From Minisyncoccota bacterium (GTDB lineage: Bacteria; Patescibacteriota; Minisyncoccia; Phycocordibacterales; UBA9973): 64,000 nucleotides of DNA. The notes beneath the pieces are model-generated. The model was not told where the DNA came from and did not search any database. It saw nothing but the letters and a program-made list of their open reading frames with translations. Where the stretch lies: assembly GCA_041666225.1 (NCBI GenBank), contig JBAYHJ010000001.1, forward strand, positions 65,881 through 129,880, read 5' to 3'. Below are positions 8,516 through 62,663 of the stretch, piece after piece. The position numbers were made by a program, and so were the translations under genes. Within the stretch, counting starts at the first letter, position 1. Each line of letters begins with the position of its first letter.

Positions 8516-9184
8516 ATGTCTATTCGTGCAACACCTTTTGTTTGTGATGAGTATTATCATATTTACAACCGTGGAGTAAACAAGATGAAAATATTCATAA
8601 ATCATAGCGATTATGATCGTTTTTTAAAGTTATTATATTCAATAAATAATACCACTTTGACAAAATTCTCAGATATTGAAACAAGTCCAGGCAAGGCTTG
8701 GACATTTGAGAGAGATGAAACACTAGTTGATATTGGAGCATTTTGTCTTATGCCAAATCATTTTCATTTACTTTTAAAAGAAAAAAATGAGGGTGGAATT
8801 ACAACTTTTTTACACAGATTAGCAACTTCATATTCTACATATTTTAATAAAAAATATAACCGTAATGGTTCTGTGTTTCAAGGAAAATTTAAATCTGAGT
8901 ACATAAACAATGATCGTTATTTAAAATATTTATTTTCATATATTCATTTAAATCCAATAAAACTTGTACAAAAGGATTGGAAAGAAAAGGGGGTAAATAA
9001 TATAAATAAAACAAAACAATATTTGAATAAATATAAATATTCTAGTTATGTTGATTATAAAAATGAAAAAAGAAAAGAATCAAAAATTCTTAATCCATCA
9101 GTTTTCCCAAATTATTTTCCAACAACAGAAAAATTTGAGAAAGAAATTTTTGAATGGCTAAATTATAACAACTATGATAAATAA
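8516..9184 (+). CDS. IS200/IS605-like HUH Y1 transposase, REP-associated (RAYT-like)
   Basis: YHIYNRGVN near the N-terminus, HuH motif in LMPNHFHLLL, and later Y-containing motifs (YLKYLFSYIHLNP). The gene is flanked by inverted copies of the palindrome. Confidence 0.6.
   Translation: MSIRATPFVCDEYYHIYNRGVNKMKIFINHSDYDRFLKLLYSINNTTLTKFSDIETSPGKAWTFERDETLVDIGAFCLMPNHFHLLLKEKNEGGITTFLHRLATSYSTYFNKKYNRNGSVFQGKFKSEYINNDRYLKYLFSYIHLNPIKLVQKDWKEKGVNNINKTKQYLNKYKYSSYVDYKNEKRKESKILNPSVFPNYFPTTEKFEKEIFEWLNYNNYDK
8684..8705. repeat. REP-like palindrome copy b (aGTCCAGGCAAGGCTTGGACAt), inside the transposase CDS
   Basis: Same core with one G-T wobble; in-frame, encoding SPGKAWT. Confidence 0.75.
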
Positions 9185-10076: not shown

Positions 10077-10144
<68 letters not shown>

Positions 10145-16529: not shown

Positions 16530-16625
16530 TGAATTAATTAAGAATTAATAATTAAGAATTAAGAAGGGGGAGTAGTAAGGAAAAAAGTAATTAAGAATTA
16601 AAAATTACGAATTAAGAATTGGGAA
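16530..16625. repeat. AT-rich dispersed intergenic repeat cluster (AATTAAGAATTAATAATTAAGAATTAAGAA ... TAATTAAGAATTAAAAATTACGAATTAAGAATTGGG)
   Basis: Built from the AATTAAGAATT / TAATAATTA(C/A)GAATT units that recur at 20571, 21036-21137, 32386, 61641, 62626 and 63301. Confidence 0.7.
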
Positions 16626-16654
16626 AGTACGAGAAAAGAGAAAAAATAAATAGG

Positions 16655-19570
16655 ATGAAAAGATTTTTACCATACATTTTAATATTGACGATTCTAGTGC
16701 AACTCCTTGCGCCTTTTAGTGTTGGCAGTGGAGTGAAAATTAATAAAGCCGAAGCAGCAGATTGTGTAATTAATGATGTTTTATTTAATCCTCTTACGGC
16801 ACTGCCAGACAAAAAACCAACCAGTGTAACTCTTCATATTTGGACGAGTGGTTGTGCTGGGCAAATAATTAGTGGACTAGGTCTTAATTTAAAAGATGAG
16901 GGGAAAAACTCTGTTTTATTGGTAGTTCCACGACAGGGGATAGTTTTAGATAAATTTTCTTTTCAATTAAAAACAGGGGAATACGGTTGTGGTACTGATA
17001 AAAAATGTGAAAATGTATCTGTTGATTTTACTATTATTGACAACAAGGGAGCAGTCTTGGCTACATATTCCTCAACTCAAGGTGGCTCAAAAAGAGACGA
17101 CGGAGCAGACATTATGTCTTATTTGTGTACAAAAAATGGAACAGAGTCTGATTGTAATAATACTGAGAAGTGGGAGTTTGTTTCTTCTGTTGGAACTGAT
17201 CAATCTGTTGGAGGTGCGACTACAACAGAAAAAGATGTTTGGTATTTTGAAAGTAAAAATGCAACAGGGGTTGTTGTTTTTACTTCAACAGAATATTCAT
17301 CTATTGAAACATGTACATTGGAAAGTGATGATAGGGCAAAAAATTTTAAAGATGAAAAAGTAGGTGATTGTGTATCAAAAAAAGTTGTTGTTGTTCGTGG
17401 TAATGAAGAAACACTTAATGATACAGATTCAAATCCATTGGACTGTGGAATAAGAAATTTTAAAGGCTGTGTGGCAATGGTTCCATATTATTTATTATTT
17501 GTACCAACTTCAGCGGTTTTCACAATAGCAGGGAAAATGCTTGATTTTACTTTGGGGTATTCTATTCAGGATAAATCATATCGTTCAACATTTGTTGTTG
17601 AAGGATGGGGAATTGTTCGAGACTTTTGTAATATGTTCTTTATTTTCATTTTGCTTTATATTGCTTTTGGAACTATTTTAAATCTTCACAGTGTTAAAAC
17701 AAAAGAAATGATTATAAATGTTGTAATCATTGGGCTTTTAATAAACTTTAGTTTATTTGCCACACAAGTAATTGTTGACGCTTCAAATATATTGACGCGG
17801 GTGTTTTATAATTCAGAGACAATCAAAATAGTTGAAAAGAATGCAGATGGAACAATCAAAGAACCTGTTCCTGGTAGTTATATAAAACTTTCTGAAGCTA
17901 TTGTCTCAAAAGTAAATCCCCAAGAACTAGTTTTGAGGGCTGGTACTGTTGGTTACATACAAGATAAAGGGGGTTTGTCTACACCCCCAGAAGCAGGAAA
18001 AATTGGTCTTGGTACGCTTATTTTAGTTATATTACTTGCAACAGCGGTAAACATTGTTGGAATAATAGTATTCGTATCTGTCTCTTTGATTTTCGTGACA
18101 AGAGTTATTGGGCTTTGGCTTGCTATGATATTTTCTCCTTTTGTATTTTTCAGCTACACCGTTCCATCATTGCAAGACATGGAAATGGTTGGTTGGAAAA
18201 AATGGTGGCCAGAAACTTTAAAACTTGCTTTTCTGGCTCCTGTTTTTATGTTTTTTATGTATCTAATTGTTAAGTTTTTGAATCTAAAACTTGATATTAT
18301 AAATACCACGGGGAAATCTGGGCCGGATTTCGTTGTTTCAATATTATTACCATTTGCTTTTATAATGATACTTCTCTGGAAAGCAAAAGATATTGCCAAA
18401 GACATGTCTGGTAAAATGGGCCAAACAATAACAAACGGAATTGCTGCTGCAGGAGGAATTGCACTGGGTGGAGCTGCATTGGGAACAGCAGTGTTGGGAA
18501 GAAGGGTAATTGGACAGACAATGGCAAAAGCATCAAGGGGAGATACTGCTACGCAGAAATACCAAGCTGCATTAGGAGATCCAGCAGCTATGGCTAAATT
18601 AACTAATTGGCAGAAACTAAAAGGAGGTGTTGGTTCAGCAGTAGGAATGGGTAAGGTCTATGGTACTGATAAGGGTAATATTGACCCACTAACAGGTAAA
18701 CCTATTGGGGTTGAGGGTGGTATTGGTGGGGCTCTAAATAAAAAACAGAAAGCTGTTGGGGATGTAGATAGTGCTCGACACAAAGAAGATGAATTAAAGA
18801 AAGCAAGTGGATTAGAAGGTGTTGATAACAGTAAACTATCTGGTAATGATATTAACACGATGGAAGGTAAGTTTAAAGAAACAGAACGATCTAATGCAGA
18901 AGCTGCCGCAAGAAAGGGAGTTGACGCTAAAGGAAAAGCAATATCAATAGAAGATGATAAAGGAATTTCATATCGAGGTGAAGAAGAATTCAAAAAAGCA
19001 AAGATGGAAAAGATGATACAAGACAGAAAAGACCTTGGAAATGATGATGATTTTGTAAAAGAAAAGGTAAGAGATAAAAAGGGTAATGTTATTAGAGAAG
19101 AAAGAACAGATCAATTAAAACCTGAAATATTAGACGGCATCAAGAATGAATTAAATATTAAATTAAGTGCTGCTGTTAAAATAGCTGCTGACAATAAACT
19201 TGTTGAGGACTTTGGTAAAATGAGAGAAAACGCCTCAAAACACGTCAACCCAATTAACAGAGTAATTGCTGGATCAAATAAATATAGTTATGACGCTAGA
19301 AAATTATCTGATATCAAATCAGATAAAAGAGAGGGGTTCTTTGCAAAAGTCCCAGTCGCTCTTATAGCGGGTATCGCAACAGGTGTTAGAGCTGGTATAA
19401 AAAATATTGGGCTAAGCAATGGAGGTGTAAAAGTTGAAGGTAATTTTATGAAAGATTTAGGAAATACAATTAGTGATTCATTAAAGAGTATGAAGGTTAA
19501 TGTAGACCTAAGCCATGTTGGAGAAACAAAAAGTAGTGCCGATGCACATGCAGGAGGAGCACATCATTAA
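16655..19570 (+). CDS. Large polytopic membrane protein, possible VirB6/TrbL-like T4SS channel component with long extracytoplasmic N-domain and G/K-rich C-tail
   Basis: Signal peptide MKRFLPYILILTILVQLLAPFSV, a ~290-aa Cys-containing domain, then six or more hydrophobic helices between aa ~290 and 620. The ATG at 16655 was chosen over the TTG at 16619. Confidence 0.35.
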   Translation: MKRFLPYILILTILVQLLAPFSVGSGVKINKAEAADCVINDVLFNPLTALPDKKPTSVTLHIWTSGCAGQIISGLGLNLKDEGKNSVLLVVPRQGIVLDKFSFQLKTGEYGCGTDKKCENVSVDFTIIDNKGAVLATYSSTQGGSKRDDGADIMSYLCTKNGTESDCNNTEKWEFVSSVGTDQSVGGATTTEKDVWYFESKNATGVVVFTSTEYSSIETCTLESDDRAKNFKDEKVGDCVSKKVVVVRGNEETLNDTDSNPLDCGIRNFKGCVAMVPYYLLFVPTSAVFTIAGKMLDFTLGYSIQDKSYRSTFVVEGWGIVRDFCNMFFIFILLYIAFGTILNLHSVKTKEMIINVVIIGLLINFSLFATQVIVDASNILTRVFYNSETIKIVEKNADGTIKEPVPGSYIKLSEAIVSKVNPQELVLRAGTVGYIQDKGGLSTPPEAGKIGLGTLILVILLATAVNIVGIIVFVSVSLIFVTRVIGLWLAMIFSPFVFFSYTVPSLQDMEMVGWKKWWPETLKLAFLAPVFMFFMYLIVKFLNLKLDIINTTGKSGPDFVVSILLPFAFIMILLWKAKDIAKDMSGKMGQTITNGIAAAGGIALGGAALGTAVLGRRVIGQTMAKASRGDTATQKYQAALGDPAAMAKLTNWQKLKGGVGSAVGMGKVYGTDKGNIDPLTGKPIGVEGGIGGALNKKQKAVGDVDSARHKEDELKKASGLEGVDNSKLSGNDINTMEGKFKETERSNAEAAARKGVDAKGKAISIEDDKGISYRGEEEFKKAKMEKMIQDRKDLGNDDDFVKEKVRDKKGNVIREERTDQLKPEILDGIKNELNIKLSAAVKIAADNKLVEDFGKMRENASKHVNPINRVIAGSNKYSYDARKLSDIKSDKREGFFAKVPVALIAGIATGVRAGIKNIGLSNGGVKVEGNFMKDLGNTISDSLKSMKVNVDLSHVGETKSSADAHAGGAHH

Positions 19571-19581
19571 AAAAACAAATT

Positions 19582-20184
19582 ATGGATCAAACACAATTAC
19601 AACAAAATATCGCTAAATACTATGCAAAACTTCCTAGTGATTTACAGCAATCTTTTTCGAGTATGGCCTGGATGGAAGATTTAAAAAATATTAGTACTAA
19701 ATATTCTCTTACCAATGAACAAACTGAGACCCTAGCAACAGAAACAACACTAGTTTTACTTGGTATTGTTCATCTGGAAGATTATGTTTTGACTCTTAAA
19801 AATGATTTAAAATTAAATGACGAAACTTTTAATAAAATATTAGATGATTTAGACGCAAATATTCTAAAAGACACCAAAGATGATCTTGTTAAAACATTTG
19901 AGTTAAATATTGAATTATTGGAAAAAGAAAATAGTAATAAAGAAAAAGAAATAATTAAAACAAATGAAGATGAAGTACCATTGCCACCATACGCAGAAGT
20001 AATTAAGAATGACGAATTACCAATTACAAAAGTTGAAATACCTAAGGGAATAGAAGTAAAACCAGAAATTAGTATTGCTCCGAAAAATATTTTTGAAGAA
20101 AAAATGAAAGGAGCAACAGTAAGCACTCAAACCGTTTCTGATTATTCTGTCACAAAAAAAGATCCATATAGAGAGGAGTTCTAA
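19582..20184 (+). CDS. Hypothetical protein
   Basis: 200-aa ORF, tightly packed in the operon. Confidence 0.4.
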   Translation: MDQTQLQQNIAKYYAKLPSDLQQSFSSMAWMEDLKNISTKYSLTNEQTETLATETTLVLLGIVHLEDYVLTLKNDLKLNDETFNKILDDLDANILKDTKDDLVKTFELNIELLEKENSNKEKEIIKTNEDEVPLPPYAEVIKNDELPITKVEIPKGIEVKPEISIAPKNIFEEKMKGATVSTQTVSDYSVTKKDPYREEF

Positions 20185-20215
20185 AAAATTAAGACTTAAC
20201 AATTATGAATTAGGA

Positions 20216-20566
20216 ATGAAAGAAGATAATATAATTAAAGAAAAAAGTTATAATTTTAGTCTTAAAATTATAAAAACATACCAAGAATTAACAATAGATA
20301 AAAAAGAGTTTATTCTTTCAAAACAACTAATTCGTTCAGGAACATCTATCGGGGCTAACGTAGAAGAATCAATCGGTGCTCAATCAAAAAATGATTTTAT
20401 ATCAAAAATAAGTATTTCTTACAAAGAGGCAAGGGAAACACTTTATTGGTTACATCTTTTAACAGATAGTGGTTTTCTAAAAAAGGAACAATCTGATACA
20501 CTTATATTTGATTGTGAAGAATTATTAAAAATACTCGGTTCTATTTTAAGAACATCTAAGTCGTGA
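20216..20566 (+). CDS. Four-helix-bundle protein (23S rRNA intervening-sequence protein family)
   Basis: QLIRSGTSIGANVEE signature and the ETLYWL motif. Confidence 0.7.
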   Translation: MKEDNIIKEKSYNFSLKIIKTYQELTIDKKEFILSKQLIRSGTSIGANVEESIGAQSKNDFISKISISYKEARETLYWLHLLTDSGFLKKEQSDTLIFDCEELLKILGSILRTSKS

Positions 20567-20570
20567 GTGT

Positions 20571-20610
20571 ATAATTATTAATTCTTAATTATTAATTCTT
20601 AATTAATCCA
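20571..20610. repeat. AT-rich dispersed repeat, reverse orientation (ATAATTATTAATTCTTAATTATTAATTCTTAATTAATCC)
   Basis: Reverse complement of the AATTAAGAATTAATAATTAAGAATT unit. Confidence 0.7.
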
Positions 20611-20612
20611 AG

Positions 20613-21020
20613 GTGCAATTCAAAGTCCCACAATTTATCGACGTTGAAGACAAACTTTTTGGTCCTTTCACCTTTCGCCAATTCGCATACCTCGCAGGCG
20701 GAGCAGGAGCAATTTTTGTCTTATATAAATTACTTCCTTTATGGATTAGTATTTTTCTAATTATCCCAATGGCAGTTCTAACTGGTCTTTTGGTTTTTTA
20801 TAAAATAAACGAAAAACCTTTTATTTTTTACCTTCAAGCTGGATTTGAATATTTAACTTCAAGTAAGCTATATATTTGGAAACAGCGCTTGGCAAAACCT
20901 GGAAACAAAGAGACAGAAACAGAAACACCTCTTCCTATGGTATCAATAGTTCCAATGACAACAGAAAATAAATTAAAAGATTTGTCATGGAGTTTAGACG
21001 TTAAGGACAAAAACAAGTAG
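20613..21020 (+). CDS. PrgI-family (VirB3-like) T4SS membrane protein; GTG start
   Basis: N-terminal KVPQFIDVEDKLFGPFTFRQFAYLAGGAGAIFVLY matches the PrgI pattern (KVP...EK...T.RQ...G.GAA), and two TM helices follow. Confidence 0.55.
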   Translation: MQFKVPQFIDVEDKLFGPFTFRQFAYLAGGAGAIFVLYKLLPLWISIFLIIPMAVLTGLLVFYKINEKPFIFYLQAGFEYLTSSKLYIWKQRLAKPGNKETETETPLPMVSIVPMTTENKLKDLSWSLDVKDKNK

Positions 21021-21034: not shown

Positions 21035-21035
21035 T

Positions 21036-21140
21036 AATTAATAATTAGGAATTAAGAATTAAGAATTGGGCTAAAAAGTATGATATAATATTAGTAGTTA
21101 TGAATTCTTAATTCCTAATTATTAATTCTTAATTATTTAA
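21036..21140. repeat. Inverted pair of the AT-rich repeat (AATAATTAGGAATTAAGAATT ... AATTCTTAATTCCTAATTATT) flanking a TGATATAAT -10-like core
   Basis: Arms of about 22 bp at 21044-21066 and 21105-21127. The 36-nt centre contains gTATGATATAAT. Confidence 0.65.
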
Positions 21141-21142
21141 AT

Positions 21143-21793
21143 ATGATTAGTGCAAAAAGTTCTCAAGAGTTTGTTCCAATTAAAGAAGTTCGAAACGGCA
21201 TCATTGTCCTTAAAGATGGTGGTCTTCGTGCAATTCTTCTTGCTTCTTCTTTAAATCTTTCTTTAAAATCGTCCGATGAACAAGCTGCTATTATAAATGA
21301 ATTTCAAAATTTTCTAAATGGATTGGATTTCCCCACACAAATATCTATGCAATCACGCCGACTAGATATCCGCCCATATCTTTTAACCTTAGAAGCAAGA
21401 ATAAAAGAACAAGTTGAGCCACTTTTAAAAATACAAACGAAAGAATACATAGACTTTATTCGGTCTTTCACTGATGAAGTAAACATCATGACAAAAACTT
21501 TTTTTATCGTCGTTCCTTATAGTCCCACAATCATAAAATCTAGTGACAGTATGATGAATAGTTTACTTGGAGGAAGTTCTGAAAAAAAACAAATTGAAAA
21601 TACAAAAAAAGCCATGGATTTGGCTTCATTTGAAGAAAAGAGAACTCAACTTGATCAAAGGGTTGGAGTCATCATTGGAGGCTTGGGTAGAATTGGGATC
21701 AGAACAGAACAACTTAAAACAGATCAGGTTGTTGAACTTTTTTATAAAACATTTAACCCAGGAGATATTAGTCAGGGAATTAAATTACAATAA
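21143..21793 (+). CDS. VirB4 N-terminal (CagE/TrbE/VirB-type) domain protein; same frame as the downstream ATPase ORF, separated by one TAA
   Basis: VPIKEVRNGIIVLKDGGLRAILLASSLNLSLKSSDEQAAIINEFQNFLNGLDFPTQISMQSRRLD resembles the VirB4 N-terminal family pattern (DG.l.av.e..G...l.sd.e.e.....f...l..l......Q....R). Stop TAA at 21791-21793, then F-I, then ATG 21800 in the same frame. Confidence 0.45.
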   Translation: MISAKSSQEFVPIKEVRNGIIVLKDGGLRAILLASSLNLSLKSSDEQAAIINEFQNFLNGLDFPTQISMQSRRLDIRPYLLTLEARIKEQVEPLLKIQTKEYIDFIRSFTDEVNIMTKTFFIVVPYSPTIIKSSDSMMNSLLGGSSEKKQIENTKKAMDLASFEEKRTQLDQRVGVIIGGLGRIGIRTEQLKTDQVVELFYKTFNPGDISQGIKLQ

Positions 21794-21799
21794 TTTATT

Positions 21800-23638
21800 A
21801 TGGGAATATTTTCATCTATATTTAAAAAGAAAGGGGACATAAACACTCAAAACAAAAGTGGTGTTATGCCAATGCTTCCAAGTGAAGTATATAAAGCAGC
21901 GACACTTGAGCTTCAAGACATTATCGCTCCATCTGCTCTCCAAATAACACCAAAATCGCTAAACTTGGGAGACAAAATAGCCAGAACTTTCTTTGTCATA
22001 TCATATCCAAGATACCTAAGTGACAACTGGTTTTCTCCAATTATAAACTTGGATAAAGTTTTTGATGTTTCTATTTTTATTCATCCTATTGAGACTGCTG
22101 AAATACTTAGATCCTTCCAGAAAAAAGTTGCTGAAGTTCAAAGTCAGATTTCTATTCGTGAATCAAAAGGTCTTGTTCGTGATCCAATGCTAGATACTGC
22201 ATATAAAGATCTTGAAGACCTTCGCGACAACCTAATGCAAGCTCAAGAAAAAATGTTTGATGTTGGGCTTTATATTACAATCTACGCTGAAAATGATAAT
22301 GATTTATTTAAAATTGAAAATGAAATAAAATCTCTTCTTGAATCAAAGCTCATTTATTTAAAACCTGCTCTTTTCCAACAAAATGAAGGTTTTAAGAGTG
22401 TTATTCCTCTTGGAACTGACATTTTAGGTATTCATCAAAAGCTCAATACTGAACCACTTTCAAGCATCTTTCCTTTCGTTTCGTTTGATCTAACTGAAGA
22501 CAAAGGAATACTTTATGGGGTTAACCGCCACAATTCAAGTTTAATTCTTTTTGATAGATTTTCTCTTCCAAACTACAATTCAATAACTTTTGCTACCGCT
22601 GGAGCAGGAAAATCTTACGCCACAAAGCTGGAAATTATTCGTACTCTTATGTTTGATACTGAAGTTATCGTCATAGACCCAGAAAGGGAATATGAATATT
22701 TAGCAGAAGCCGTCGGTGGTAGATACTTCAATATTGCTCTTTCGTCAGATCACCACATCAACCCTTTTGATTTACCAATACCGACAGGAGACGAAACAGG
22801 AGCCGATGTCTTGCGAGCAAATACCATAAATCTAGTAGGCTTGTTTCGTATTATGCTTGGAGGACTTACCCCAGAAGAAGATTCCATCATAGATACGGCA
22901 ATCACAGAAACATATGCGCTTAAAGATATTACTTCTGATTCAGATTTTCGAAACATCGAACCACCTATGTTGTCCGACTTCGAGGTTGTTCTCTCTGGGA
23001 TGGAGGGAAGTGAATCTTTGATGCAACGTTTGATTAAATACACCCATGGTTCTTGGGCATCTTTCCTCAATCAACCATCAAACGTCGATATCAATCGTAA
23101 GTTTATTGTTTTTTCCGTTCGAGACATGGAAGACGAATTGAAACCTGTTGCTATGTATATTGTCACTCACTATATTTGGAATGCTATTCGTAAAAATATT
23201 AAAAAGAGATTGTTGGTAGTAGACGAGGCTTGGTGGATGATGAAGTCAGAAGACACTGCTTCTTTCCTTTACTCTATTGCTAAGCGTGGAAGAAAATACT
23301 ATTTGGGGCTTGCAACCATTACTCAAGATGTAGGGGATTTTATGAAAAGCCCTTATGGTATTCCTATTGTTACAAACTCTTCTATTCAACTTCTTCTTAA
23401 ACAATCCCCGGCAACCATAGATGTACTCCAAAAAACTTTCAATCTGACAGATGAAGAAAAGTATCTACTCTTGGAGGCAAATGTGGGAGAGGGTATATTC
23501 TTTGCTGGATTGAAACACGTTGCCATCAAAACTATCGCATCTTACACCGAGGACCAGATCATTACTTCTGACCCTTCACAAATTCTTGCTATCAAAAAAG
23601 CCAAAAGTGATTTACTTGCGTCAAACAGTAGTAATTAA
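21800..23638 (+). CDS. virB4: VirB4/TrbE/TrsE-family T4SS ATPase (C-terminal part or full protein)
   Basis: Walker A in FATAGAGKSYATKLE, Walker B/DEAW in LLVVDEAWWMM, and a VirB4-like N-region (FFVISYPRYLSDNWF). Confidence 0.75.
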   Translation: MGIFSSIFKKKGDINTQNKSGVMPMLPSEVYKAATLELQDIIAPSALQITPKSLNLGDKIARTFFVISYPRYLSDNWFSPIINLDKVFDVSIFIHPIETAEILRSFQKKVAEVQSQISIRESKGLVRDPMLDTAYKDLEDLRDNLMQAQEKMFDVGLYITIYAENDNDLFKIENEIKSLLESKLIYLKPALFQQNEGFKSVIPLGTDILGIHQKLNTEPLSSIFPFVSFDLTEDKGILYGVNRHNSSLILFDRFSLPNYNSITFATAGAGKSYATKLEIIRTLMFDTEVIVIDPEREYEYLAEAVGGRYFNIALSSDHHINPFDLPIPTGDETGADVLRANTINLVGLFRIMLGGLTPEEDSIIDTAITETYALKDITSDSDFRNIEPPMLSDFEVVLSGMEGSESLMQRLIKYTHGSWASFLNQPSNVDINRKFIVFSVRDMEDELKPVAMYIVTHYIWNAIRKNIKKRLLVVDEAWWMMKSEDTASFLYSIAKRGRKYYLGLATITQDVGDFMKSPYGIPIVTNSSIQLLLKQSPATIDVLQKTFNLTDEEKYLLLEANVGEGIFFAGLKHVAIKTIASYTEDQIITSDPSQILAIKKAKSDLLASNSSN

Positions 23639-23706: not shown

Positions 23707-24711
23707 ATGTATAAAGTGAAAATTATAAAAATAAAATTTTTTCTAGTTTGGGTTTTTATTTTTGGAATAATTTGTATACCATCTTTTTCTTTTGCTGAAA
23801 TGCAAATAGAAGTGCAGAGTGATGAAGTTAATATAGAGATGAGTCCCAGAAACCCACAACCATATGACGATGTAACTATTACTCTTAGTAGTTACGCAAC
23901 TGATCTAAATAAGGCAATAATCGTTTGGAAAACTGGCTCAAGTACAGTTCTTTCGGGAATTGGTAAAACTAGTTATTCTTTTAAAGCGTCAGGGCCAAAT
24001 ACAACTAACTTTTTTGATATAAGTATTACTCCAGTTGGATCCATGAGTAATATAAATAAAAAAATTTCTATAACCCCCTCAGAAATTGAGATCATGTGGG
24101 AATCAGTAAATGGATACACACCTCCTTTTTATAGAGGAAAGTCACTTCCTTCAAGTGGTTCTTTTATCAAAGCTGTCGCAATCCCAAATACGAATACAAT
24201 AAAATCAGGGAGTGGTAGTATAACTTATAATTGGAAAAACAATGACAGTGCAGAAGTTGATTCTTCTGGATACAATAAAAATTCTTACATATTTAAAAAT
24301 AATATGTTTGATAATAAAAATGAAATAAGTGTAGTAGCTTCTTCTGTTGATGGAAAATATTCAGCTGAAAATTCAATACAAATACCTACATATAAACCAA
24401 AAATAATTTTTTACAAAAAGTCTCCAACTGAAGGCATTCTTTACAATAATGCACTCGACAAAGAAGCCTATATGTCTGAAGAAGAAATGACAATACTTGC
24501 TGAACCATACTTTTTGACTCTTCAAAACAATGAAAATGATTTAACTTACTCTTGGCAAATAAATGGAGAAAAAATAGTAACTCCTTCAAAGAAAAACGAA
24601 CTCACTGTCAGGCCAACTTCACGAGGTGGCTATGCTACTATTAATTTGATTATTGAAAATGTAAATGAATTATTCCAAGAAGTTAGTAATCAATTAAAAT
24701 TAAATTTATAA
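23707..24711 (+). CDS. Secreted hypothetical protein
   Basis: Signal peptide (FFLVWVFIFGIICIPSFSFA). The -10 TGTATAAT overlaps the annotated ATG, so the true start may be the downstream GTG at 23716. Confidence 0.45.
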   Translation: MYKVKIIKIKFFLVWVFIFGIICIPSFSFAEMQIEVQSDEVNIEMSPRNPQPYDDVTITLSSYATDLNKAIIVWKTGSSTVLSGIGKTSYSFKASGPNTTNFFDISITPVGSMSNINKKISITPSEIEIMWESVNGYTPPFYRGKSLPSSGSFIKAVAIPNTNTIKSGSGSITYNWKNNDSAEVDSSGYNKNSYIFKNNMFDNKNEISVVASSVDGKYSAENSIQIPTYKPKIIFYKKSPTEGILYNNALDKEAYMSEEEMTILAEPYFLTLQNNENDLTYSWQINGEKIVTPSKKNELTVRPTSRGGYATINLIIENVNELFQEVSNQLKLNL

Positions 24712-24712
24712 T

Positions 24713-26008
24713 ATGAAAAAAATATTTGTATCCATTTTTATAATAACTACAATTTTAACTCCATTGTTTTTTGTTAGTAAAATACAAAAAGTTGAAGCTG
24801 TAACCCCAAAAATTGATAGTATAAATAAGGTTACAGAAGTTAAACATGCAAATAATACTTGGGAATGGAATCTTAATATCCAAACAACTGATATCCCAGA
24901 CGGAACAGATGTTTGGGTTAATTTATATAAAGGAAGAACCCCTGGAGAAAATTTAATTAAAGCAATTGTAGCTCCTGATATAAAAGATAACATTTCAAGA
25001 TTTGGCACAGATTCTATTTTGGAAGATAATACTGATTACACGATTCAGGCTTCAGTATTATCACTGCCACGAACTTCTATTGTTTTCCGTGGAAAAACAA
25101 TAGAAGGGGATAAGGGTGATGTAGTTTATATAAACCCAGAAGAAAATAATGTTGATACTGGAATATACACCCTTCTTGCACCAATAGGAGATCTAAAAGT
25201 TGCTCCAGGTAATGTGGGTGATTATTTTAATATAATATTTAAAATAGCTATCGGCCTCTGTGGAGCTCTCGCTGTTATAATGATTGTTCTTGGTGGAATA
25301 CAATACATGGGTAATGAATCTATTTTTGGGCAAACAGAAGCAAAAAGTAAAATAACTGCCGCAATTCTTGGTCTATTGATTGCTCTTGGTGCTTATGCTC
25401 TTCTTAATACTATCAACCCAGACCTACTAGGTGGGGGAGGAGTACATATTGATCAGGTGAGTGCAGAAATACAAGAAGAACCAATATTATCAGATATAAA
25501 CACTCCAATTCCATCTGGATCATCAAACTCTTTCCCTTTTTGTAAGGGGGGTGTCAGAAAAACCGCAGTAAAAACAACTGCTGGGTATATGACATTTTGT
25601 TCAGCTTATTCATCTAAACTCCAAGAAATGATTTCTAGTGCATATCATGCTACTCCTAGTATTGCACTTGGAGGAGGAGCATTCAGGGATCCAGCAACAC
25701 AAATTGCCGCGAGAAGAAGAAATTGTGCCGATGTTTACAATACACCCTCAGAAAAATGTGTTCCCCCAACAGCAAAACCAGGAACATCTGCACATGAAAA
25801 TGGGCTTGCAGTTGATTTTACTTGTGATGGAACAACAATTAATTGGCAAACTAATACAAAAGCACCTGACTACCAACCTAAATATGCCCGTGTTCAAAAT
25901 ACAAAAAAATGTTTTGATTGGCTAACAGCTAATGCTAGTAAGTATGGGTTTAAAAATTATACAAGAGAAAACTGGCATTGGTCTACTGGGGATTTAGCTG
26001 GTCATTAA
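24713..26008 (+). CDS. Fusion protein: signal peptide + VirB2/TrbC-pilin-like double-TM segment + C-terminal VanY/M15 (LAS) peptidoglycan peptidase domain
   Basis: Double-TM FKIAIGLCGALAVIMIVLGGIQYMG...ITAAILGLLIALGAYALLNTINP. SAHENGLAVD matches SxHxxGxAxD exactly, and ENWHW gives the ExxH motif. Confidence 0.6.
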   Translation: MKKIFVSIFIITTILTPLFFVSKIQKVEAVTPKIDSINKVTEVKHANNTWEWNLNIQTTDIPDGTDVWVNLYKGRTPGENLIKAIVAPDIKDNISRFGTDSILEDNTDYTIQASVLSLPRTSIVFRGKTIEGDKGDVVYINPEENNVDTGIYTLLAPIGDLKVAPGNVGDYFNIIFKIAIGLCGALAVIMIVLGGIQYMGNESIFGQTEAKSKITAAILGLLIALGAYALLNTINPDLLGGGGVHIDQVSAEIQEEPILSDINTPIPSGSSNSFPFCKGGVRKTAVKTTAGYMTFCSAYSSKLQEMISSAYHATPSIALGGGAFRDPATQIAARRRNCADVYNTPSEKCVPPTAKPGTSAHENGLAVDFTCDGTTINWQTNTKAPDYQPKYARVQNTKKCFDWLTANASKYGFKNYTRENWHWSTGDLAGH

Positions 26009-26015
26009 TTAATTT

Positions 26016-27512
26016 ATGTCTAAAAAAATAATCATTTTTATAATAGCATTTATAACCACAGGAATAATAATTCTTGGGGTTTATTTCTGGATAAATAAAG
26101 ACAAAACCACAAATTTAGATGGAACTACTCCTTGGTATCAAGAGTTCAATCCTTTTGGAACTGGGAGTAATGCCACAAATAATACAGACAATAATAATGT
26201 GGGGGGAGACCAAAATGAAGTTCCAGATGGGGCAAATAATCAAACATCCAAATTCTATCAGATTACAGACTTTGCAATCGCTGGTGCTACCTTTTTAGAA
26301 GATACAAGACCAATTGTGGTTATACCGGGCCAAGAAGTTACCCAAAAGCCAGAACCAATTAAAACAATTATTAGTGCTGAAACAAAAGAAGGAAGAAAAG
26401 AAATCCAAATATTTTTGAATGAAACTCTTTCTTTAAAACCAGCCCTTGTGGTAGATGGAAATTTTGGCAAAAAAGTTACAAAGGCGATAAAAGATTTTCA
26501 AAAATTAAATAATTTACCAATCACAGGTATTGTTGATGCTGCAACTGCTCCATTTTTCATAAAAACAACTACAATTACGGACGTGGCAGAAAAAAACTTA
26601 TTTGAAACTGCTCCATCTGTCAGATATGTAGAGAGAATGAACGGACATATTTATAAAATGTTCCTAGATACAAAAATAAAAGAAAAAATTTCAAACTCAA
26701 CTATTCCTAGTATTTATGAAGCACTTTTTGATAAAACAGCAAAGACTGTGGTTTATAGATATTTATCAGAAGACAAAATAATAAGTAGTTTTATGGCAAC
26801 CTTAGGAGCAGTAAAGGGGGAGTTCCTTCCACAAAATATTTCTGGAATAACTACCTCGCCAGATAAAACTAAATTTTTCTATCTAACAGAAAACAGCAAT
26901 GGTGTCACGGGAACAGTGGGAGTTTTTGGGGGAGCAACGAGAGACAACGTATTTAGTTCTCCTTTTACAGAGTGGATACCACAATGGACAAAAAATCAAA
27001 ATATTTACCTAACAACAAAAGCTTCTTACAGTGTTTCTGGAAGTGTCTTTCTTTTAAACACAACAAACAAAACTATTTCAAAAATATTTGGTGGTGAACT
27101 GGGGCTCACTACATTAGTAAGTCCAAATGGGTCAAATGTTTTGTATAGTACATCCACAGAAACAGGCCCTAAGCTCGGTGTTTTTAATGCTACAAATCAC
27201 TCTACAAAAGATTTAAATACTTATGGACTACCTGAAAAATGTGTTTGGAGTAATGATGGTATTAGTGTTTACTGTGCTATTCCAAGTGTTATCACTGGCA
27301 ACCAATACCCTGATATTTGGTATCAAGGGCTAATTTCTTTTGATGATTATTTTGTAAAGATAGATACCAACAATGGTGAAAAAGTAACCATGGCAAATTC
27401 GGTCAATGAAAAACCATTAGATGGAACTTATCTATTTTTAGACAATAAAGAAGACAATCTTTTCTTTACAAACAAAAAAGATTCAACATTTTGGGGGTTG
27501 GACCTAAGATAA
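26016..27512 (+). CDS. Membrane-anchored protein with PG_binding_1 peptidoglycan-binding domain and beta-rich C-terminal domain
   Basis: N-terminal TM; VVDGNFGKKVTKAIKDFQKLNNLPITGIVDAATAPFF matches DGxFGxxTxxAVKxFQ...GL..DGIVG..T. Confidence 0.55.
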   Translation: MSKKIIIFIIAFITTGIIILGVYFWINKDKTTNLDGTTPWYQEFNPFGTGSNATNNTDNNNVGGDQNEVPDGANNQTSKFYQITDFAIAGATFLEDTRPIVVIPGQEVTQKPEPIKTIISAETKEGRKEIQIFLNETLSLKPALVVDGNFGKKVTKAIKDFQKLNNLPITGIVDAATAPFFIKTTTITDVAEKNLFETAPSVRYVERMNGHIYKMFLDTKIKEKISNSTIPSIYEALFDKTAKTVVYRYLSEDKIISSFMATLGAVKGEFLPQNISGITTSPDKTKFFYLTENSNGVTGTVGVFGGATRDNVFSSPFTEWIPQWTKNQNIYLTTKASYSVSGSVFLLNTTNKTISKIFGGELGLTTLVSPNGSNVLYSTSTETGPKLGVFNATNHSTKDLNTYGLPEKCVWSNDGISVYCAIPSVITGNQYPDIWYQGLISFDDYFVKIDTNNGEKVTMANSVNEKPLDGTYLFLDNKEDNLFFTNKKDSTFWGLDLR

Positions 27513-27545
27513 TTACCAATTAATAATTACCGATTAGTAATGAAT

Positions 27546-27580
27546 ACAAAAATGCACAAGCGAAGCTTGTGCATTTTTAA
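27546..27580. terminator. Bidirectional rho-independent terminator (aaaaaTGCACAAGCgaaGCTTGTGCAttttt) between convergent genes
   Basis: 9-bp stem, GAA loop, A-run and T-run; flanked by inverted AATTACCAATTAATAATTACC repeat variants. Confidence 0.7.
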
Positions 27581-27601
27581 TTAGTAATTTTTAATTGGTA
27601 A

Positions 27602-28069
27602 TTAGTCATTATTGACGTATTTAATCACAACTCTACGAGTTGGACCATACCCCTCTGATTCTGTTTTGATGTTTTTTGCTCCTTCTAAAAACATATGAAT
27701 AATACGTCTTTCATAAGAGGGCATCGGATCAATTTCAATATTACTTTTGAAATAACGAGCACGTTCTGCCATCATGTGGGCAATATTTTTTAAATTTTCA
27801 AAACGCTTTTTTTGATAACCATTTACATCAATAAAAATACTAGGACCTCTCTCTTCTTCTTTTATCGTTCCTTTCTCAACTATTCTTTGAACAATGTGAT
27901 TTAAAGAACGCAAGGTTTCACCCTCTCTTCCAATAATAAAATTAGAATCTGGTGTTTCTATAGAACACCAAAGTATTCCATTTTCATCCACAAATTCACA
28001 TTTGGTGAGTGTGCATGCTGTGTGTTTAAATATTTGCTCTATTGCTTCTTTTATTTTATCTTTATTCAT
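27602..28069 (-). CDS. jag: RNA-binding protein KhpB/Jag (KH + R3H domains)
   Basis: IGREGETLRSL is KH GxxG-like. MPSYERRIIHMFL is R3H-like. The gene sits downstream of yidC. Confidence 0.7.
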   Translation of the reverse strand: MNKDKIKEAIEQIFKHTACTLTKCEFVDENGILWCSIETPDSNFIIGREGETLRSLNHIVQRIVEKGTIKEEERGPSIFIDVNGYQKKRFENLKNIAHMMAERARYFKSNIEIDPMPSYERRIIHMFLEGAKNIKTESEGYGPTRRVVIKYVNND

Positions 28070-28075: not shown

Positions 28076-28849
28076 TTAAATTAAATTGCGTGACAACTGT
28101 CGACGAATATACCATTCTTGGACAATAGTAAATATATTACTCACAATCCAATACAATGCAACTGCAGCTGAAATCTTCCACGCAATAAAACCAATAAATA
28201 CAGGTAGAATATATCTTACGTTTAACTGCATACTGTCAGATAATTGTTCTTGAAATGTTTTTGGTTCATCTTTATTTCCAATTTCTTTAACAATTTCAAC
28301 ATTTTTTGATTTAACAGGCATAGATAAATACCCTTGAATAAATTGTGTAACACCAGCCAAAACACCCAAGGATATACTTTTACTACCTAGCTCAATTAGA
28401 TTCAAGAAATTTGTATTTATAGCGACTGGAGTTTGGATAAAAGAATATATAAGATTTGCATCGATAGCAAAGGTTTTATAAAAAACATAATACAAAGCAA
28501 AGATAACAGGAAGTTGGAGTAAAACAACTAAACACCCAGAGAAAGGATTGGTTCCATATTTTTTATAAAGTTCAAATGTTTTTTTTGCTTGCTCTTCTTT
28601 ATTGGGAAAATCTTTTTTTATTTGTTTTAATTCTGGCTCCATCCTCTTCATCAAAATCTGGCTTTTTATAGACTTACGGGTAAGAGGGGAAAGGACTAAT
28701 TTAACAACGATTGTTACTAAAATAATAGCAAAACCAACATCACCAAAAGTAATGTTGTTTATTATAAAAATTAAAATATTATATATTGGTTGATAAAATA
28801 CAGTATTCCATAAAGCATTCATTGGTCTATTGTATCCTAAAAATATCAA
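28076..28849 (-). CDS. yidC: Membrane protein insertase YidC (short form)
   Basis: Five hydrophobic helices, KRMEPELKQIKKDF, and the conserved rpmH-rnpA-yidD-yidC-jag order. Confidence 0.8.
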   Translation of the reverse strand: MIFLGYNRPMNALWNTVFYQPIYNILIFIINNITFGDVGFAIILVTIVVKLVLSPLTRKSIKSQILMKRMEPELKQIKKDFPNKEEQAKKTFELYKKYGTNPFSGCLVVLLQLPVIFALYYVFYKTFAIDANLIYSFIQTPVAINTNFLNLIELGSKSISLGVLAGVTQFIQGYLSMPVKSKNVEIVKEIGNKDEPKTFQEQLSDSMQLNVRYILPVFIGFIAWKISAAVALYWIVSNIFTIVQEWYIRRQLSRNLI

Positions 28850-29566: not shown

Positions 29567-29692
29567 AGTGAAAATATATACTATATTTGACAAAAATGCA
29601 ACGGGGGTTTTAAAACATATCCACACGATATTAACATGTTAATTAAGATATTTAATTGTGGGGGAAACTCAAAACAATGTATAATGTGCACT

Positions 29693-31057
29693 ATGAATAC
29701 AAAAGAACTCTGGAATAAATGCTTATCGGAAATTGAAATAAATATCTCAAAAGCGAATTTTACTACTTGGTTTAAAAATACGTCTATAATCAAAGAAGAT
29801 GGAGGGGTTATTGTTGTCGGTGTACCAAATGAATTTGTAAAAGATTGGCTTTACAATAAATTCCACAAACTTATACTAAAAACTTTAATTGGAAACGAGG
29901 AGAGTATCCGCGGTGTTGAATACATCATACACAAACAAGAATCTCACCATGAACAAGATCCTCAAACTGGTGACAAAAACCCCATAAAAACACCCCTAAC
30001 TACAAACAAAGAACTTCCTCTTAGTGATTTATATATAAACAAAGATGATAATTTAAACCCAAAATATAATTTTAATTCTTTTATTGTTGGTCCATTCAAT
30101 GAGCTTGCTTATGCTGTGGCTCAAGCAATCATCACAAATCCTGGACAAAACTACAATCCATTTTTTATTTACGGGGGAACTGGTTTGGGTAAAACCCATA
30201 TGATCCAAGCAATAGGAAATACGATAAAAATAAAACATCCATCAAAAAAGGTGTACTATGTTAGTTTAGAAAGGTTTACAATCGACTACATAAATTCAAT
30301 TCAAAACAAAAATCCTAATTCTTTTAAGGAAAAATATAGGAAATATGATGTGATAATAATGGATGATATACAATTCATCTCAGGAAAAGACAAAACCCAA
30401 GAAGAACTTTTCCATCTTTTTAATACTCTATATGAGAGTAATAAGCAAATAATTTTTTCATCCGATAAACACCCAAACTTTATTCAAGGATTAGAAGATA
30501 GGTTGCAGTCTAGGTTTGCTTCTGGTATGACAGTACAAATAGTTGAACCAGATTATGAATCTCGTGTTGCCATCATAAAAGCCAAGTTTGAATCTACAAA
30601 TTGTATCATTGAACCAGAGGTAATTTCTTATCTTGCTGAATCTCTGGAGGGGAATATACGTGAATTAGAGGGAAGTTTAAACACTGTTGTATGCCAAACT
30701 CAACTAAAAAACAGACCCTTAAATTTAGCTGAAATAAAAACTCTGATAAAAAACAATATCCGCCCTAAAAAAACTGTTGCAATTAAAGACATTGTAAAAA
30801 TCGTGGCTGATCAGTATGGTCTTGCTGAGGAAGTAATTTATGAAAAAACAAGAAGAAAAGAAATCGTGAGAGCAAGGCAAGTAGCAATGTATTTACTCCG
30901 TGAAGATTTTAATATCTCGTATCCTTTAATTGGGCAAAAACTAGGAGATAGAGACCACACAACAGTAATTCACTCTCATTTAAAAATAAAAGCTGATTTA
31001 AAAACTGATCCCTCATTATTACAAGAAATCGAAAAGATAAGAATTATGTTCAAATAA
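29693..31057 (+). CDS. dnaA: Chromosomal replication initiator DnaA
   Basis: AAA+ motifs (FIYGGTGLGKTHM, IIMDDIQF) and a C-terminal DNA-binding HTH. TGTATAAT lies 8 nt upstream of the ATG. Confidence 0.9.
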   Translation: MNTKELWNKCLSEIEINISKANFTTWFKNTSIIKEDGGVIVVGVPNEFVKDWLYNKFHKLILKTLIGNEESIRGVEYIIHKQESHHEQDPQTGDKNPIKTPLTTNKELPLSDLYINKDDNLNPKYNFNSFIVGPFNELAYAVAQAIITNPGQNYNPFFIYGGTGLGKTHMIQAIGNTIKIKHPSKKVYYVSLERFTIDYINSIQNKNPNSFKEKYRKYDVIIMDDIQFISGKDKTQEELFHLFNTLYESNKQIIFSSDKHPNFIQGLEDRLQSRFASGMTVQIVEPDYESRVAIIKAKFESTNCIIEPEVISYLAESLEGNIRELEGSLNTVVCQTQLKNRPLNLAEIKTLIKNNIRPKKTVAIKDIVKIVADQYGLAEEVIYEKTRRKEIVRARQVAMYLLREDFNISYPLIGQKLGDRDHTTVIHSHLKIKADLKTDPSLLQEIEKIRIMFK

Positions 31058-32388: not shown

Positions 32389-32431
32389 TAATAATTAAGA
32401 ATTAATAATTACGAATTAATAATTATAATTC
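32386..32431. repeat. AT-rich dispersed repeat copy (TAATAATAATTAAGAATTAATAATTACGAATTAATAATTA)
   Basis: Same units as 16530 and 62626. Confidence 0.65.
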
Positions 32432-61640: not shown

Positions 61641-61685
61641 AAAAGTAATTAAAAATTAATAATTAAGAATTAATAATGAAATTCT
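61641..61685. repeat. AT-rich dispersed repeat copy (AATTAAAAATTAATAATTAAGAATTAATAATG)
   Basis: Same family. Confidence 0.6.
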
Positions 61686-62625: not shown

Positions 62626-62663
62626 AAAATAATTAAGAATTAAAAATTACGAATTGAAATACT
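62626..62663. repeat. AT-rich dispersed repeat copy (AATAATTAAGAATTAAAAATTACGAATTGAAATAC)
   Basis: Same family; near-identical to 16589-16620. Confidence 0.65.

What the first reader, a model, noticed from the sequence alone, without database searches (positions are those of the whole stretch)
21143..23638. VirB4 apparently split by a single in-frame TAA
ORF 21143-21793 (VirB4 N-terminal-like) and ORF 21800-23638 (VirB4 ATPase) are in the same reading frame. They are separated only by TAA (21791-21793) plus two sense codons (TTT ATT) before the ATG. Joined, they give about 830 aa, which is canonical VirB4 length.

Four explanations are possible:
- a recent nonsense mutation (pseudogenisation)
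- an assembly or sequencing error
- programmed stop-codon readthrough
- a genuine two-subunit VirB4
Basis: seen in the sequence. Interest (0 to 1): 0.6.

Follow-up and report, generated by a model that had tools for sequence, protein, structure and literature searches.

The report
Conserved two-gene VirB4: TrsD plus ATPase
The "interrupted" VirB4 is an ordinary, already published arrangement in Patescibacteria, in which the first ~200 residues of the type IV secretion ATPase VirB4 are made as a separate small protein (TrsD-like) from a gene just upstream of the shortened ATPase gene; the shared reading frame in this genome is a coincidence.

Summary
ORF1 (21143-21793, 216 aa) ends in TAA and is followed by TTT ATT and then the ATG of ORF2 (21800-23638, 612 aa), in the same frame.

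It is not a broken gene. In 79 species-level relatives, including the window, ORF1 stops at the same residue and ORF2 starts with the same MGIFSS motif. The frame offset is 0, +1 or +2 in 22, 37 and 20 loci. Gaps range from a 4-nt ATGA overlap to 288 nt, and 11 loci carry a mobile hairpin or GIY-YIG insert between the two genes. Both genes are under strong purifying selection (dN/dS about 0.04-0.1).

ORF1 matches the N-terminal positions of VirB4 profiles and the staphylococcal TrsD/TraD family. Its AlphaFold model hits only TrwK/VirB4 chains in the PDB. ORF2 matches the rest of VirB4. The two tile without overlap onto naturally fused ~790-aa VirB4 proteins of Ca. Colwellbacteria.

The gene order prgI(virB3-like)-trsD-virB4 and the break point match trsC-trsD-trsE of plasmid pSK41. 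Quinonero-Coronel et al. 2025 (PMC12102498) already report 2,272 TrsD homologues in Patescibacteria, 1,664 of them next to virB4.

Verdict: a genuine two-subunit VirB4. Nonsense mutation, assembly error and readthrough are rejected. This is already known and of low interest.

The parts
20613..21020 (+). prgI-like (VirB3-like) small membrane protein gene, 135 aa, directly upstream of the pair
   Evidence: Pfam PF12666 PrgI, E 1e-9. It lies upstream of trsD in 79 of 80 related loci. It occupies the same position as the 135-aa trsC in pSK41, but pairwise BLASTP to TrsC is not significant.
21143..21793 (+). trsD-like gene (ORF1, 216 aa plus TAA). It encodes the first subdomain of the VirB4 N-terminal domain as a free-standing protein.
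   Evidence: NCBIfam hits: VirB4_plasma positions 102-233 of 894, TrsD/TraD NF041427 (E 2.6e-6), CD1110 VirB4 positions 2-130 of 752. There are 4852 homologues, and the best 120 are all 213-219 aa and carry PF26593. 31 of 79 family members hit PF11130 TraC_F_IV. The AF2 model has pLDDT 89.8. The top 14 PDB fold hits are all TrwK/VirB4. hhalign to pSK41 TrsD gives E 1.8e-5.
21734..21790 (+). Conserved C-terminus of ORF1 (ELFYKTFNPGDISQGIKLQ)
   Evidence: At least 90% column conservation in 79 loci. It aligns with ELYFNYYNPATIEK, which lies just before the variable linker in the fused homologues.
21791..21799 (+). TAA stop of ORF1 plus the 6-nt spacer TTTATT
   Evidence: In relatives the stop is TAA in 71 loci, TGA in 4 and TAG in 4. 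The spacer ranges from -4 to 288 nt.
21800..23638 (+). virB4 ATPase gene lacking the first N-terminal subdomain (ORF2, 612 aa)
   Evidence: NF045971 CD1110-family VirB4, 369 bits against a cutoff of 325, profile positions 182-734 of 752. TraC and VirB4_CagE profiles match from about position 270 onward. Pfam P-loop_TraG, AAA_10 and DUF87. BLASTP to pSK41 TrsE gives E 2e-31, with ORF2 residue 40 aligned to TrsE residue 36.
21800..21823 (+). Conserved N-terminal motif MGIFSS(I/L)F of the split ATPase, followed by a variable Lys/Asn-rich spacer
   Evidence: 80-96% column conservation in 79 loci. The motif is absent from the fused homologues.
22592..22618 (+). Walker A motif (ATAGAGKSY)
   Evidence: Read from the translation.
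23210..23233 (+). Walker B motif (LLVVDEAW)
   Evidence: Read from the translation.
23707..27512 (+). Three downstream genes: 334 aa of unknown function; 431 aa with a weak T4SS-pilin-like match and a VanY peptidase domain; 498 aa with a peptidoglycan-binding domain. The first two (g334, g431) are syntenic with the pair in relatives.
   Evidence: Pfam. g334 is present in 68 and g431 in 59 of 80 related loci, in the same order. The 498-aa gene was not recovered in the related loci, where the 4-kb flanks probably did not reach it, so its synteny is not established.
16619..20184 (+). Conserved upstream genes (983 aa and 200 aa, no family assignment)
   Evidence: Present in 70 and 72 of 80 related loci in the same order. 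No Pfam family.
29636..31057 (+). dnaA. The cluster sits next to the replication-origin region; yidC is at 28076-28849(-) and jag/KhpB at 27602-28069(-).
   Evidence: Pfam. This matches the reported origin-proximal location of Patescibacteria T4SS (PMC12102498).

Best explanation

ORF1 is a TrsD-like protein. It corresponds to about the first 180-215 residues of canonical VirB4, that is, the first subdomain of the N-terminal domain. In the R388 structure, the N-terminal domain mediates VirB4 dimerisation and is wrapped by VirB3. ORF2 carries the rest of the N-terminal domain and the Walker A/B ATPase domain.

Shown here: the split lies in a variable inter-subdomain linker; it is conserved across the lineage; both genes are under purifying selection; both parts tile onto naturally fused VirB4 proteins of a sister lineage; and the break point is the same as in TrsD/TrsE of pSK41.

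Inferred: the two polypeptides reassemble non-covalently into a VirB4-like protomer that docks on the PrgI/VirB3-like membrane protein encoded just upstream. Their synthesis is usually coupled by tight stop-start spacing (a 1-nt gap or an ATGA overlap in many relatives, 6 nt here). The organism makes little use of Shine-Dalgarno motifs.
For: - Tiling: NCBIfam coordinates. BLASTP places ORF1 residues 4-211 on P0216 5-214 and ORF2 residues 38-598 on P0216 230-791. Alignment A2 shows the junction falling in a linker of very variable length in the fused proteins.
- Conservation of the split: the best 120 homologues are all 213-219 aa. Of the best 150 clusters at 50% identity, only 2 are fused. In 79 loci the stop is at the same residue while frame and gap vary.
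- Selection: pN is 0.06-0.14 against pS of 0.5-0.86 for both genes. The new termini are conserved.
- Fold: the ORF1 model hits only TrwK/VirB4. The model of the fused homologue aligns end to end with TrwK, TM 0.66 in both directions, E 5e-29.
- Precedent: pSK41 trsC-trsD-trsE has the same gene order and break point.
- Literature: TrsD homologues are widespread next to virB4 in Patescibacteria, and the TrsD homologue of Ca. S. epibionticum ML1 is listed as essential (PMC12102498). The VirB4 N-terminal domain contacts VirB3 and mediates dimerisation (PMC9259494).
- Transcription: no promoter-like or terminator-like site beyond chance lies between the genes.
Against: - No direct evidence of a physical TrsD-VirB4 complex. 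No multimer prediction or experiment was available.
- The match to the curated TrsD/TraD NCBIfam model is far below its cutoff (27 bits against 200), and hhalign probability to pSK41 TrsD is only 78%, so homology to staphylococcal TrsD is remote.
- No function has ever been assigned to TrsD (PMC12102498).
- In 14 of 79 loci the genes are 26-288 nt apart, so translational coupling is not obligatory.
- The cited paper reports TrsD homologues not linked to virB4 in Gracilibacteria, which leaves room for a role independent of VirB4.
Confidence: 0.84

Rival explanations
1. A recent nonsense mutation pseudogenised a formerly single ~830-aa virB4.
For: The two ORFs are in frame and separated by only TAA plus two codons. 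Fused ~790-aa VirB4 proteins exist in another Patescibacteria lineage.
Against: The stop is at the same residue in 79 species-level genomes at 63-91% ORF1 identity, and 57 of them are out of frame. dN/dS is about 0.04-0.1 in both ORFs with synonymous sites saturated. ORF2 has its own conserved start, MGIFSS.
Confidence: 0.01
2. An assembly or sequencing error created a false stop codon.
For: The window comes from a metagenome-assembled genome, and such assemblies can carry errors.
Against: Both proteins occur with exactly these sequences in public records, as consecutive accessions MFA6514717.1 and MFA6514718.1 on a 131-kb contig. Hundreds of independent assemblies from different studies give stand-alone 213-219-aa proteins and the same stop position.
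Confidence: 0.01
3. Programmed stop-codon readthrough yields a fused VirB4 isoform in addition to the two separate proteins.
For: The arrangement is in frame here and in 22 of 79 loci.
Against: The in-frame fraction is 28%, no higher than the 33% expected by chance (p = 0.34). 57 of 79 loci are out of frame or overlap as ATGA. Some in-frame loci have two stops (L002). Eleven loci carry 119-288-nt inserts with further stops between the genes. TAA followed by T is an efficient terminator in bacteria; this last point is general knowledge and was not tested here.
Confidence: 0.02
4. ORF1 (TrsD-like) is an independent T4SS accessory protein that only shares ancestry with the VirB4 N-terminus and does not reconstitute a VirB4 protomer with ORF2.
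For: No function is assigned to TrsD, and in Gracilibacteria the trsD homologues are not linked to virB4 (PMC12102498). Many stand-alone homologues carry long disordered Pro/Gln-rich C-terminal tails.
Against: ORF2 lacks exactly the segment that ORF1 supplies. Fused forms in Colwellbacteria show the two parts working within one chain. The two genes are strictly adjacent in 78 of 80 loci; in the other two the contig ends before virB4.
Confidence: 0.12

Closest known systems
TrsD-VirB4 gene pairs of the Patescibacteria T4SS (Quinonero-Coronel et al. 2025, Microb Genom, PMC12102498)
   Same: Same phylum. Same adjacency of a TrsD homologue to virB4, with PrgI/VirB3-like and pilin-like genes in the cluster, and the same location near dnaA. 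[quoted passage not shown] It counts 2,272 homologues, 1,664 of them next to virB4.
   Different: Nothing substantive; the window is one more instance. Details added here that I did not find in the passages read: exact tiling onto fused homologues, variable frame and spacing, dN/dS values, the conserved MGIFSSLF start of the ATPase, and mobile inserts between the two genes.
TrsD/TrsE of staphylococcal conjugative plasmids pSK41/pGO1 (NCBIfam NF041427, TrsD/TraD family)
   Same: Gene order is a 135-aa small protein gene, then a 227-aa trsD, then a 672-aa VirB4-like trsE. The break point is equivalent: ORF2 residue 40 aligns with TrsE residue 36, and the ORF1 profile covers TrsD residues 31-217.
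   Different: Homology is very remote: 18% identity, hhalign probability 78%, and an NCBIfam score of 27 bits against a cutoff of 200. pSK41 is a conjugative plasmid with a relaxase and coupling protein, whereas this cluster is chromosomal and next to dnaA. No relaxase or VirD4-like protein turned up among the window ORFs scanned, which covered only part of the window.
Fused full-length VirB4 of Candidatus Colwellbacteria and relatives (e.g. MBI3088895.1, 797 aa)
   Same: 36% identity to ORF1 over residues 5-214 and 56% identity to ORF2 over residues 230-791. The same PF26593 N-terminal domain is annotated.
   Different: It is a single polypeptide. A short linker replaces the stop, the spacer and the MGIFSS-containing N-terminal extension.
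TrwK/VirB4 of plasmid R388 (PDB 7O41, 7O42, 7O43, 8RTB, 8RTD)
   Same: It is the only significant fold match for the ORF1 model. The fused homologue model aligns end to end with it, TM 0.66. The ATPase core is of the same type.
   Different: It is a diderm system with a single ~820-aa chain. Sequence identity is 14-16%. The R388 N-terminal domain (residues 15-400) corresponds here to ORF1 plus about the first 250 residues of ORF2.

Membership tests
VirB4 T4SS ATPase (NCBIfam NF045971, CD1110 family; TIGR00929) | Score at or above the curated family cutoff | tested here: met
   ORF2 scores 369.3 bits against a cutoff of 325 for NF045971, covering profile positions 182-734 of 752. It scores below the cutoffs of the diderm models TIGR00929 and TIGR02746.
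VirB4 T4SS ATPase | Walker A and Walker B nucleotide-binding motifs | tested here: met
   GAGKS at ORF2 residues 267-271 and VVDEAW at 473-478.
VirB4 T4SS ATPase | N-terminal domain and ATPase domain on a single polypeptide | tested here: not met
   The first ~180 profile positions are encoded by the separate ORF1. The split is conserved in 79 loci.
VirB4 T4SS ATPase | Clustered with other T4SS membrane components (VirB3/PrgI, pilin, cell-wall hydrolase) | tested here: met
   A PrgI-family gene lies directly upstream. Downstream there is a weak T4SS_pilin match fused to VanY and a PG_binding protein. A VirB6 homologue was not identified.
TrsD/TraD conjugative transfer protein family (NCBIfam NF041427) | Score at or above the curated cutoff (200 bits) | tested here: not met
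   27.4 bits, E 2.6e-6. ORF1 is a remote homologue, not a member of the curated subfamily.
TrsD/TraD conjugative transfer protein family | Stand-alone protein of about 200-230 aa encoded directly upstream of a VirB4-like ATPase that lacks its N-terminal segment | tested here: met
   216 aa, 6 nt upstream of ORF2. pSK41 has the same layout and the same break point.
TrsD/TraD conjugative transfer protein family | Detection by the CONJScan/MPF-FATA TrsD profile used in the Patescibacteria survey | not testable with these tools
   That profile is not in the available libraries. The survey reports such hits in 2,221 Patescibacteria assemblies (PMC12102498).
VirB4/TraC N-terminal domain fold | Structural similarity to the N-terminal domain of a solved VirB4 | tested here: met
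   The AF2 model (pLDDT 89.8) gives 14 top Foldseek hits, all TrwK/VirB4, probability 1.0, E 5.5e-4 to 1e-2, TMq 0.35-0.54. The next hit has probability 0.30. The target residue ranges were not reported by the tool.
Programmed stop-codon readthrough / recoding site | Downstream ORF kept in the same frame across relatives, with no independent start | tested here: not met
   Frame offsets are 22, 37 and 20 loci. ORF2 has a conserved ATG and the MGIFSS start.

The most novel reading that the evidence does not exclude
The split is functional rather than neutral. Releasing the first VirB4 subdomain as TrsD lets the cell set its amount or assembly order independently of the ATPase hexamer, for example as a VirB3/membrane adaptor. 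The lineage-specific conserved termini (ELFYKTFNPGDISQGIKLQ on TrsD, MGIFSSLF on the ATPase) would then be a docking interface that evolved after the split. The existence of stable fused (Colwellbacteria) and split (Nomurabacteria/Paceibacterota, pSK41) states would make this a natural system for studying how the VirB4 N-terminal domain works.
Probability: 0.2. Interest if true: 0.35.

Novelty: already known. Interest (0 to 1): 0.12.

Why it matters
It matters mainly for annotation. The pair should not be flagged as a pseudogene, a frameshift or a recoding site. ORF1, currently a "hypothetical protein", can be named as a TrsD-like VirB4 N-terminal subunit.

Biologically, it is one more instance of the T4SS that is widespread in Patescibacteria and was shown to be essential in Saccharibacteria. 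The coexistence of split and fused VirB4 in sister lineages could help assign a function to TrsD, which has none so far.

Tried and rejected
- A profile search of the ORF1 family against PDB sequences found nothing meaningful (best E 0.85, unrelated proteins). Only the fold search worked.
- Local Pfam has no hit for ORF1 itself. PF26593 appears only in the precomputed annotations, and I could not retrieve its name.
- Rfam gave no family for the hairpin elements in the window or in five related loci.
- Guglielmini et al. 2014 (PMC4027160), cited for the TrsD/VirB4 homology, does not mention TrsD in its main text. The 2025 nomenclature review does not mention it either.
I modelled a natural fused homologue instead.
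- PrgI-like protein against pSK41 TrsC by BLASTP is not significant. Only position and size correspond.
- The promoter/terminator scan around the pair found nothing above shuffled expectation.
- One Pfam call failed because of reversed coordinates.
- P0306 and P0402, the two ~600-aa proteins within the fused clade, start upstream of the junction (MELYFNYYNP...). They look like truncated gene calls rather than the same split. This was not pursued.
Full report
**Observation**

The sequence is as described. ORF1 runs from 21143 to 21793 (216 codons plus TAA at 21791-21793). The six bases TTTATT follow. ORF2 runs from the ATG at 21800 to 23638 (612 codons). Both are in the same frame, and translating 21143-23638 gives 832 codons with one internal stop. 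The window has about 32% GC. Both proteins occur exactly in public records as consecutive accessions MFA6514717.1 (hypothetical protein) and MFA6514718.1 (DUF87 domain-containing protein). They lie on a 131-kb contig of a Candidatus Paceibacterota metagenome-assembled genome.

**What the two ORFs are**

ORF2 is a VirB4-type ATPase.
- It scores 369 bits on the NCBIfam CD1110-family VirB4 model (cutoff 325), but only over profile positions 182-734 of 752.
- The TraC, VirB4_CagE and Mbov_0397 VirB4 models likewise match only from about position 270-290 onward.
- Pfam finds P-loop_TraG, AAA_10 and DUF87.
- Walker A (GAGKS) and Walker B (VVDEAW) are present.

ORF1 has no hit in the local Pfam copy. 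It does match the missing N-terminal positions of the same VirB4 models: CD1110 positions 2-130 of 752 and VirB4_plasma positions 102-233 of 894. It also matches the TrsD/TraD family NF041427 at E 2.6e-6, which is far below that model's cutoff.

**Is the split real and old?**

- A search of 5.8 billion proteins with ORF1 found 4852 homologues. The best 120 (78-100% identity) are all 213-219 aa and carry PF26593.
- An exhaustive HMMER search of 50%-identity cluster representatives found 2181 hits. Of the best 150, down to about 35% identity, only two are full-length fused proteins (797 and 898 aa). Most of the rest are about 200-260 aa, and some have long disordered Pro/Gln-rich C-terminal tails.
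- I fetched 80 loci from species-representative genomes and analysed the junction in the 79 loci, including the window, that hold both genes.
  - ORF1 always stops at the same residue (...GIKLQ*). The stop is TAA in 71 loci, TGA in 4 and TAG in 4.
  - ORF2 always begins at a conserved ATG encoding MGIFSS....
  - The frame offset is 0, +1 or +2 in 22, 37 and 20 loci.
  - The gap is -4 nt (ATGA overlap) in 4 loci, 1 nt in 21, 2-15 nt in 40, and 26-288 nt in 14.
- The in-frame fraction (28%) is no higher than chance (p = 0.34).
- In 11 loci the gap holds an inserted element with perfect terminal inverted repeats. Three of these carry an 84-aa GIY-YIG ORF. This cannot be reconciled with a single translated unit.
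- Nei-Gojobori estimates against the window show synonymous sites near saturation (pS 0.5-0.86) and few non-synonymous changes (pN 0.06-0.14 for ORF1, 0.04-0.09 for ORF2). Where it can be calculated, dN/dS is about 0.04-0.1.
- The termini created by the split are themselves conserved: ELFYKTFNPGDISQGIKLQ on ORF1, and MGIFSSLF plus a variable Lys/Asn-rich spacer on ORF2.

These results exclude a recent nonsense mutation, an assembly error and programmed readthrough.

**Relation to full-length VirB4**

The fused representative P0216 (797 aa) is found in three Candidatus Colwellbacteria assemblies. It aligns with ORF1 residues 4-211 at its positions 5-214, and with ORF2 residues 38-598 at its positions 230-791.

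A search with P0216 showed a whole clade of fused proteins. 118 of the best 120 hits (59-100% identity) are 775-807 aa and carry both PF26593 and the ATPase domains.

In a joint alignment, the window's junction falls in a linker whose length varies widely among the fused proteins, from a few residues in the Colwellbacteria clade to a ~90-aa Pro-rich insert in P0247. In P0216 the Pfam TraC N-terminal model PF11130 spans the junction (residues 169-394). The break therefore lies inside the canonical VirB4/TraC N-terminal domain, between two subdomains.

**Structure**

- An AlphaFold2 model of ORF1, built from a 79-sequence alignment, is confident (pLDDT 89.8, pTM 0.79).
- Foldseek against the PDB returns 14 top hits, all TrwK/VirB4 chains of the R388 T4SS (probability 1.0, E 5.5e-4 to 1e-2). 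The next hit has probability 0.30.
- A model of the fused homologue (pLDDT 76.6, pTM 0.61) aligns end to end with TrwK, TM 0.66 in both directions, E 5e-29.
- In R388 the VirB4 N-terminal domain (residues 15-400) forms the dimer interface and is wrapped by VirB3 (PMC9259494).

**Context**

The order 983-aa gene, 200-aa gene, prgI-like, trsD-like, virB4, 334-aa gene, 431-aa gene is conserved across the 80 loci. The prgI-like gene (PF12666) is the monoderm VirB3 counterpart. Downstream genes encode a protein with a pilin-like segment and a VanY peptidase domain, and a peptidoglycan-binding protein. jag, yidC and dnaA follow at 27.6-31.1 kb.

No promoter-like or terminator-like signal above expectation separates ORF1 and ORF2. 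Shine-Dalgarno motifs are rare throughout the window (6 of 48 genes), so their absence before ORF2 is not unusual. The tight stop-start spacing suggests, but does not prove, coupled translation.

**Comparison with what is known**

Plasmid pSK41 has the same layout: a 135-aa gene (trsC), then a 227-aa trsD annotated as TrsD/TraD family, then a 672-aa VirB4-like trsE.
- The ORF1 family profile aligns with pSK41 TrsD over 176 columns (hhalign E 1.8e-5, probability 78%).
- ORF2 aligns with TrsE from residue 40 to residue 36 (E 2e-31), so the break point is equivalent.

The arrangement in Patescibacteria is published. Quinonero-Coronel et al. 2025 (PMC12102498) report TrsD as the most abundant T4SS component in the phylum.
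- They find 2,272 homologues in 2,221 assemblies, 1,664 of them associated with virB4.
[quoted passage not shown] - They report that the TrsD homologue of Ca. Southlakia epibionticum ML1 is listed as essential.
- They note that these T4SS clusters often lie near dnaA.

The T4SS was shown to be essential for epibiotic growth by Wang et al. 2023 (PMC10633639).

**Mechanism**

Shown: two genes; complementary parts of VirB4; a conserved split; purifying selection on both; and fused equivalents elsewhere.

Inferred: the two polypeptides assemble non-covalently into a VirB4-like protomer. TrsD supplies the subdomain that in R388 contacts VirB3 and the partner VirB4. The ATPase hexamer then energises a monoderm-type T4SS.

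The main remaining rival, which I put at about 12%, is that TrsD has drifted to an accessory role that does not involve rebuilding the VirB4 N-terminal domain. Its unlinked occurrence in Gracilibacteria, reported in the paper, hints at this.

**Verdict**

The apparent single in-frame TAA is a coincidence of spacing. The feature is already known and ordinary for this phylum, so interest is low. The practical value is for annotation: ORF1 is a TrsD-like VirB4 N-terminal subunit, not a pseudogene fragment.

Noticed in passing
window 16536-16621, 20187-20212, 20572-20604, 21036-21068, 21102-21134, 27509-27611, 32389-32430, 61646-61681, 62631-62659, 63323-63355: Short tandem arrays of an AT-rich heptamer (AATTAAG/AATTAAT) fill many intergenic regions. 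The pattern AATTAAGAATTA with at most 1 mismatch occurs 44 times against 4.2 expected (arrays). Oppositely oriented arrays form long hairpins. One example is the 33-nt-arm hairpin with a 35-nt loop at 21035-21135, between the prgI-like gene and trsD (RNA fold -31 kcal/mol, z = -5.9). There is no Rfam family. Function unknown.
   Followed up: partly
window 20216-20566 (+), flanked by heptamer arrays at 20187-20212 and 20572-20604: A 116-aa four-helix-bundle '23S rRNA intervening-sequence protein' gene (PF05635 E 6e-27, TIGR02436) sits inside the T4SS operon, between inverted heptamer arrays. It is present in only 13 of 80 related loci and at two different intergenic sites. It therefore behaves as a mobile cassette rather than a T4SS component.
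   Followed up: partly
L006:2441-2566, L017:1863-1984, L044, L053, L054, L060:4649-4770, L063, L078; L001, L009, L018 (between trsD and virB4): In 11 related genomes the trsD-virB4 spacer holds an inserted element with perfect terminal inverted repeats CCCGTTAGAAG...CTTCTAACGGG. Eight are 119-130 nt. Three are 283-288 nt and carry an 84-aa GIY-YIG nuclease ORF (PF01541 E 7e-17). The termini fold into a stem (z = -2.9 to -4.2).. No Rfam hit in the five loci searched (L001, L006, L017, L060, L063). They look like a family of hairpin-bounded mobile cassettes in Paceibacteria.
   Followed up: partly
window 10078-10144: A perfect tandem array of the heptamer AGAAAGT, 9.6 copies at 100% identity, lies immediately upstream of the ATG at 10147.
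   Followed up: no
window-wide; e.g. upstream of the starts at 46511, 50783, 54070, 55214 and 41029(-): Shine-Dalgarno-like motifs precede only 6 of 48 ORFs. Several genes have a TATAAT box only about 5-9 nt upstream of the start codon, which suggests leaderless or very short-leader mRNAs.
   Followed up: no
P0141, P0187, P0223, P0228 (stand-alone TrsD homologues, 406-443 aa): Some TrsD homologues carry 200-aa low-complexity Pro/Gln/Ala-rich C-terminal tails. These resemble the long linker of the fused protein P0247.
   Followed up: no
window 8516-9184 (+): An IS200-like Y1 transposase gene (PF01797 E 2e-8) lies between a UvrD-type helicase gene and the rRNA adenine dimethylase gene.
   Followed up: no
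window 14849-15125: A 144-nt tandem duplication (1.9 copies, 73% match) lies inside the 775-aa ORF at 14200-16527, which has a weak CARDB match. It probably reflects repeated domains of a surface protein.
   Followed up: no
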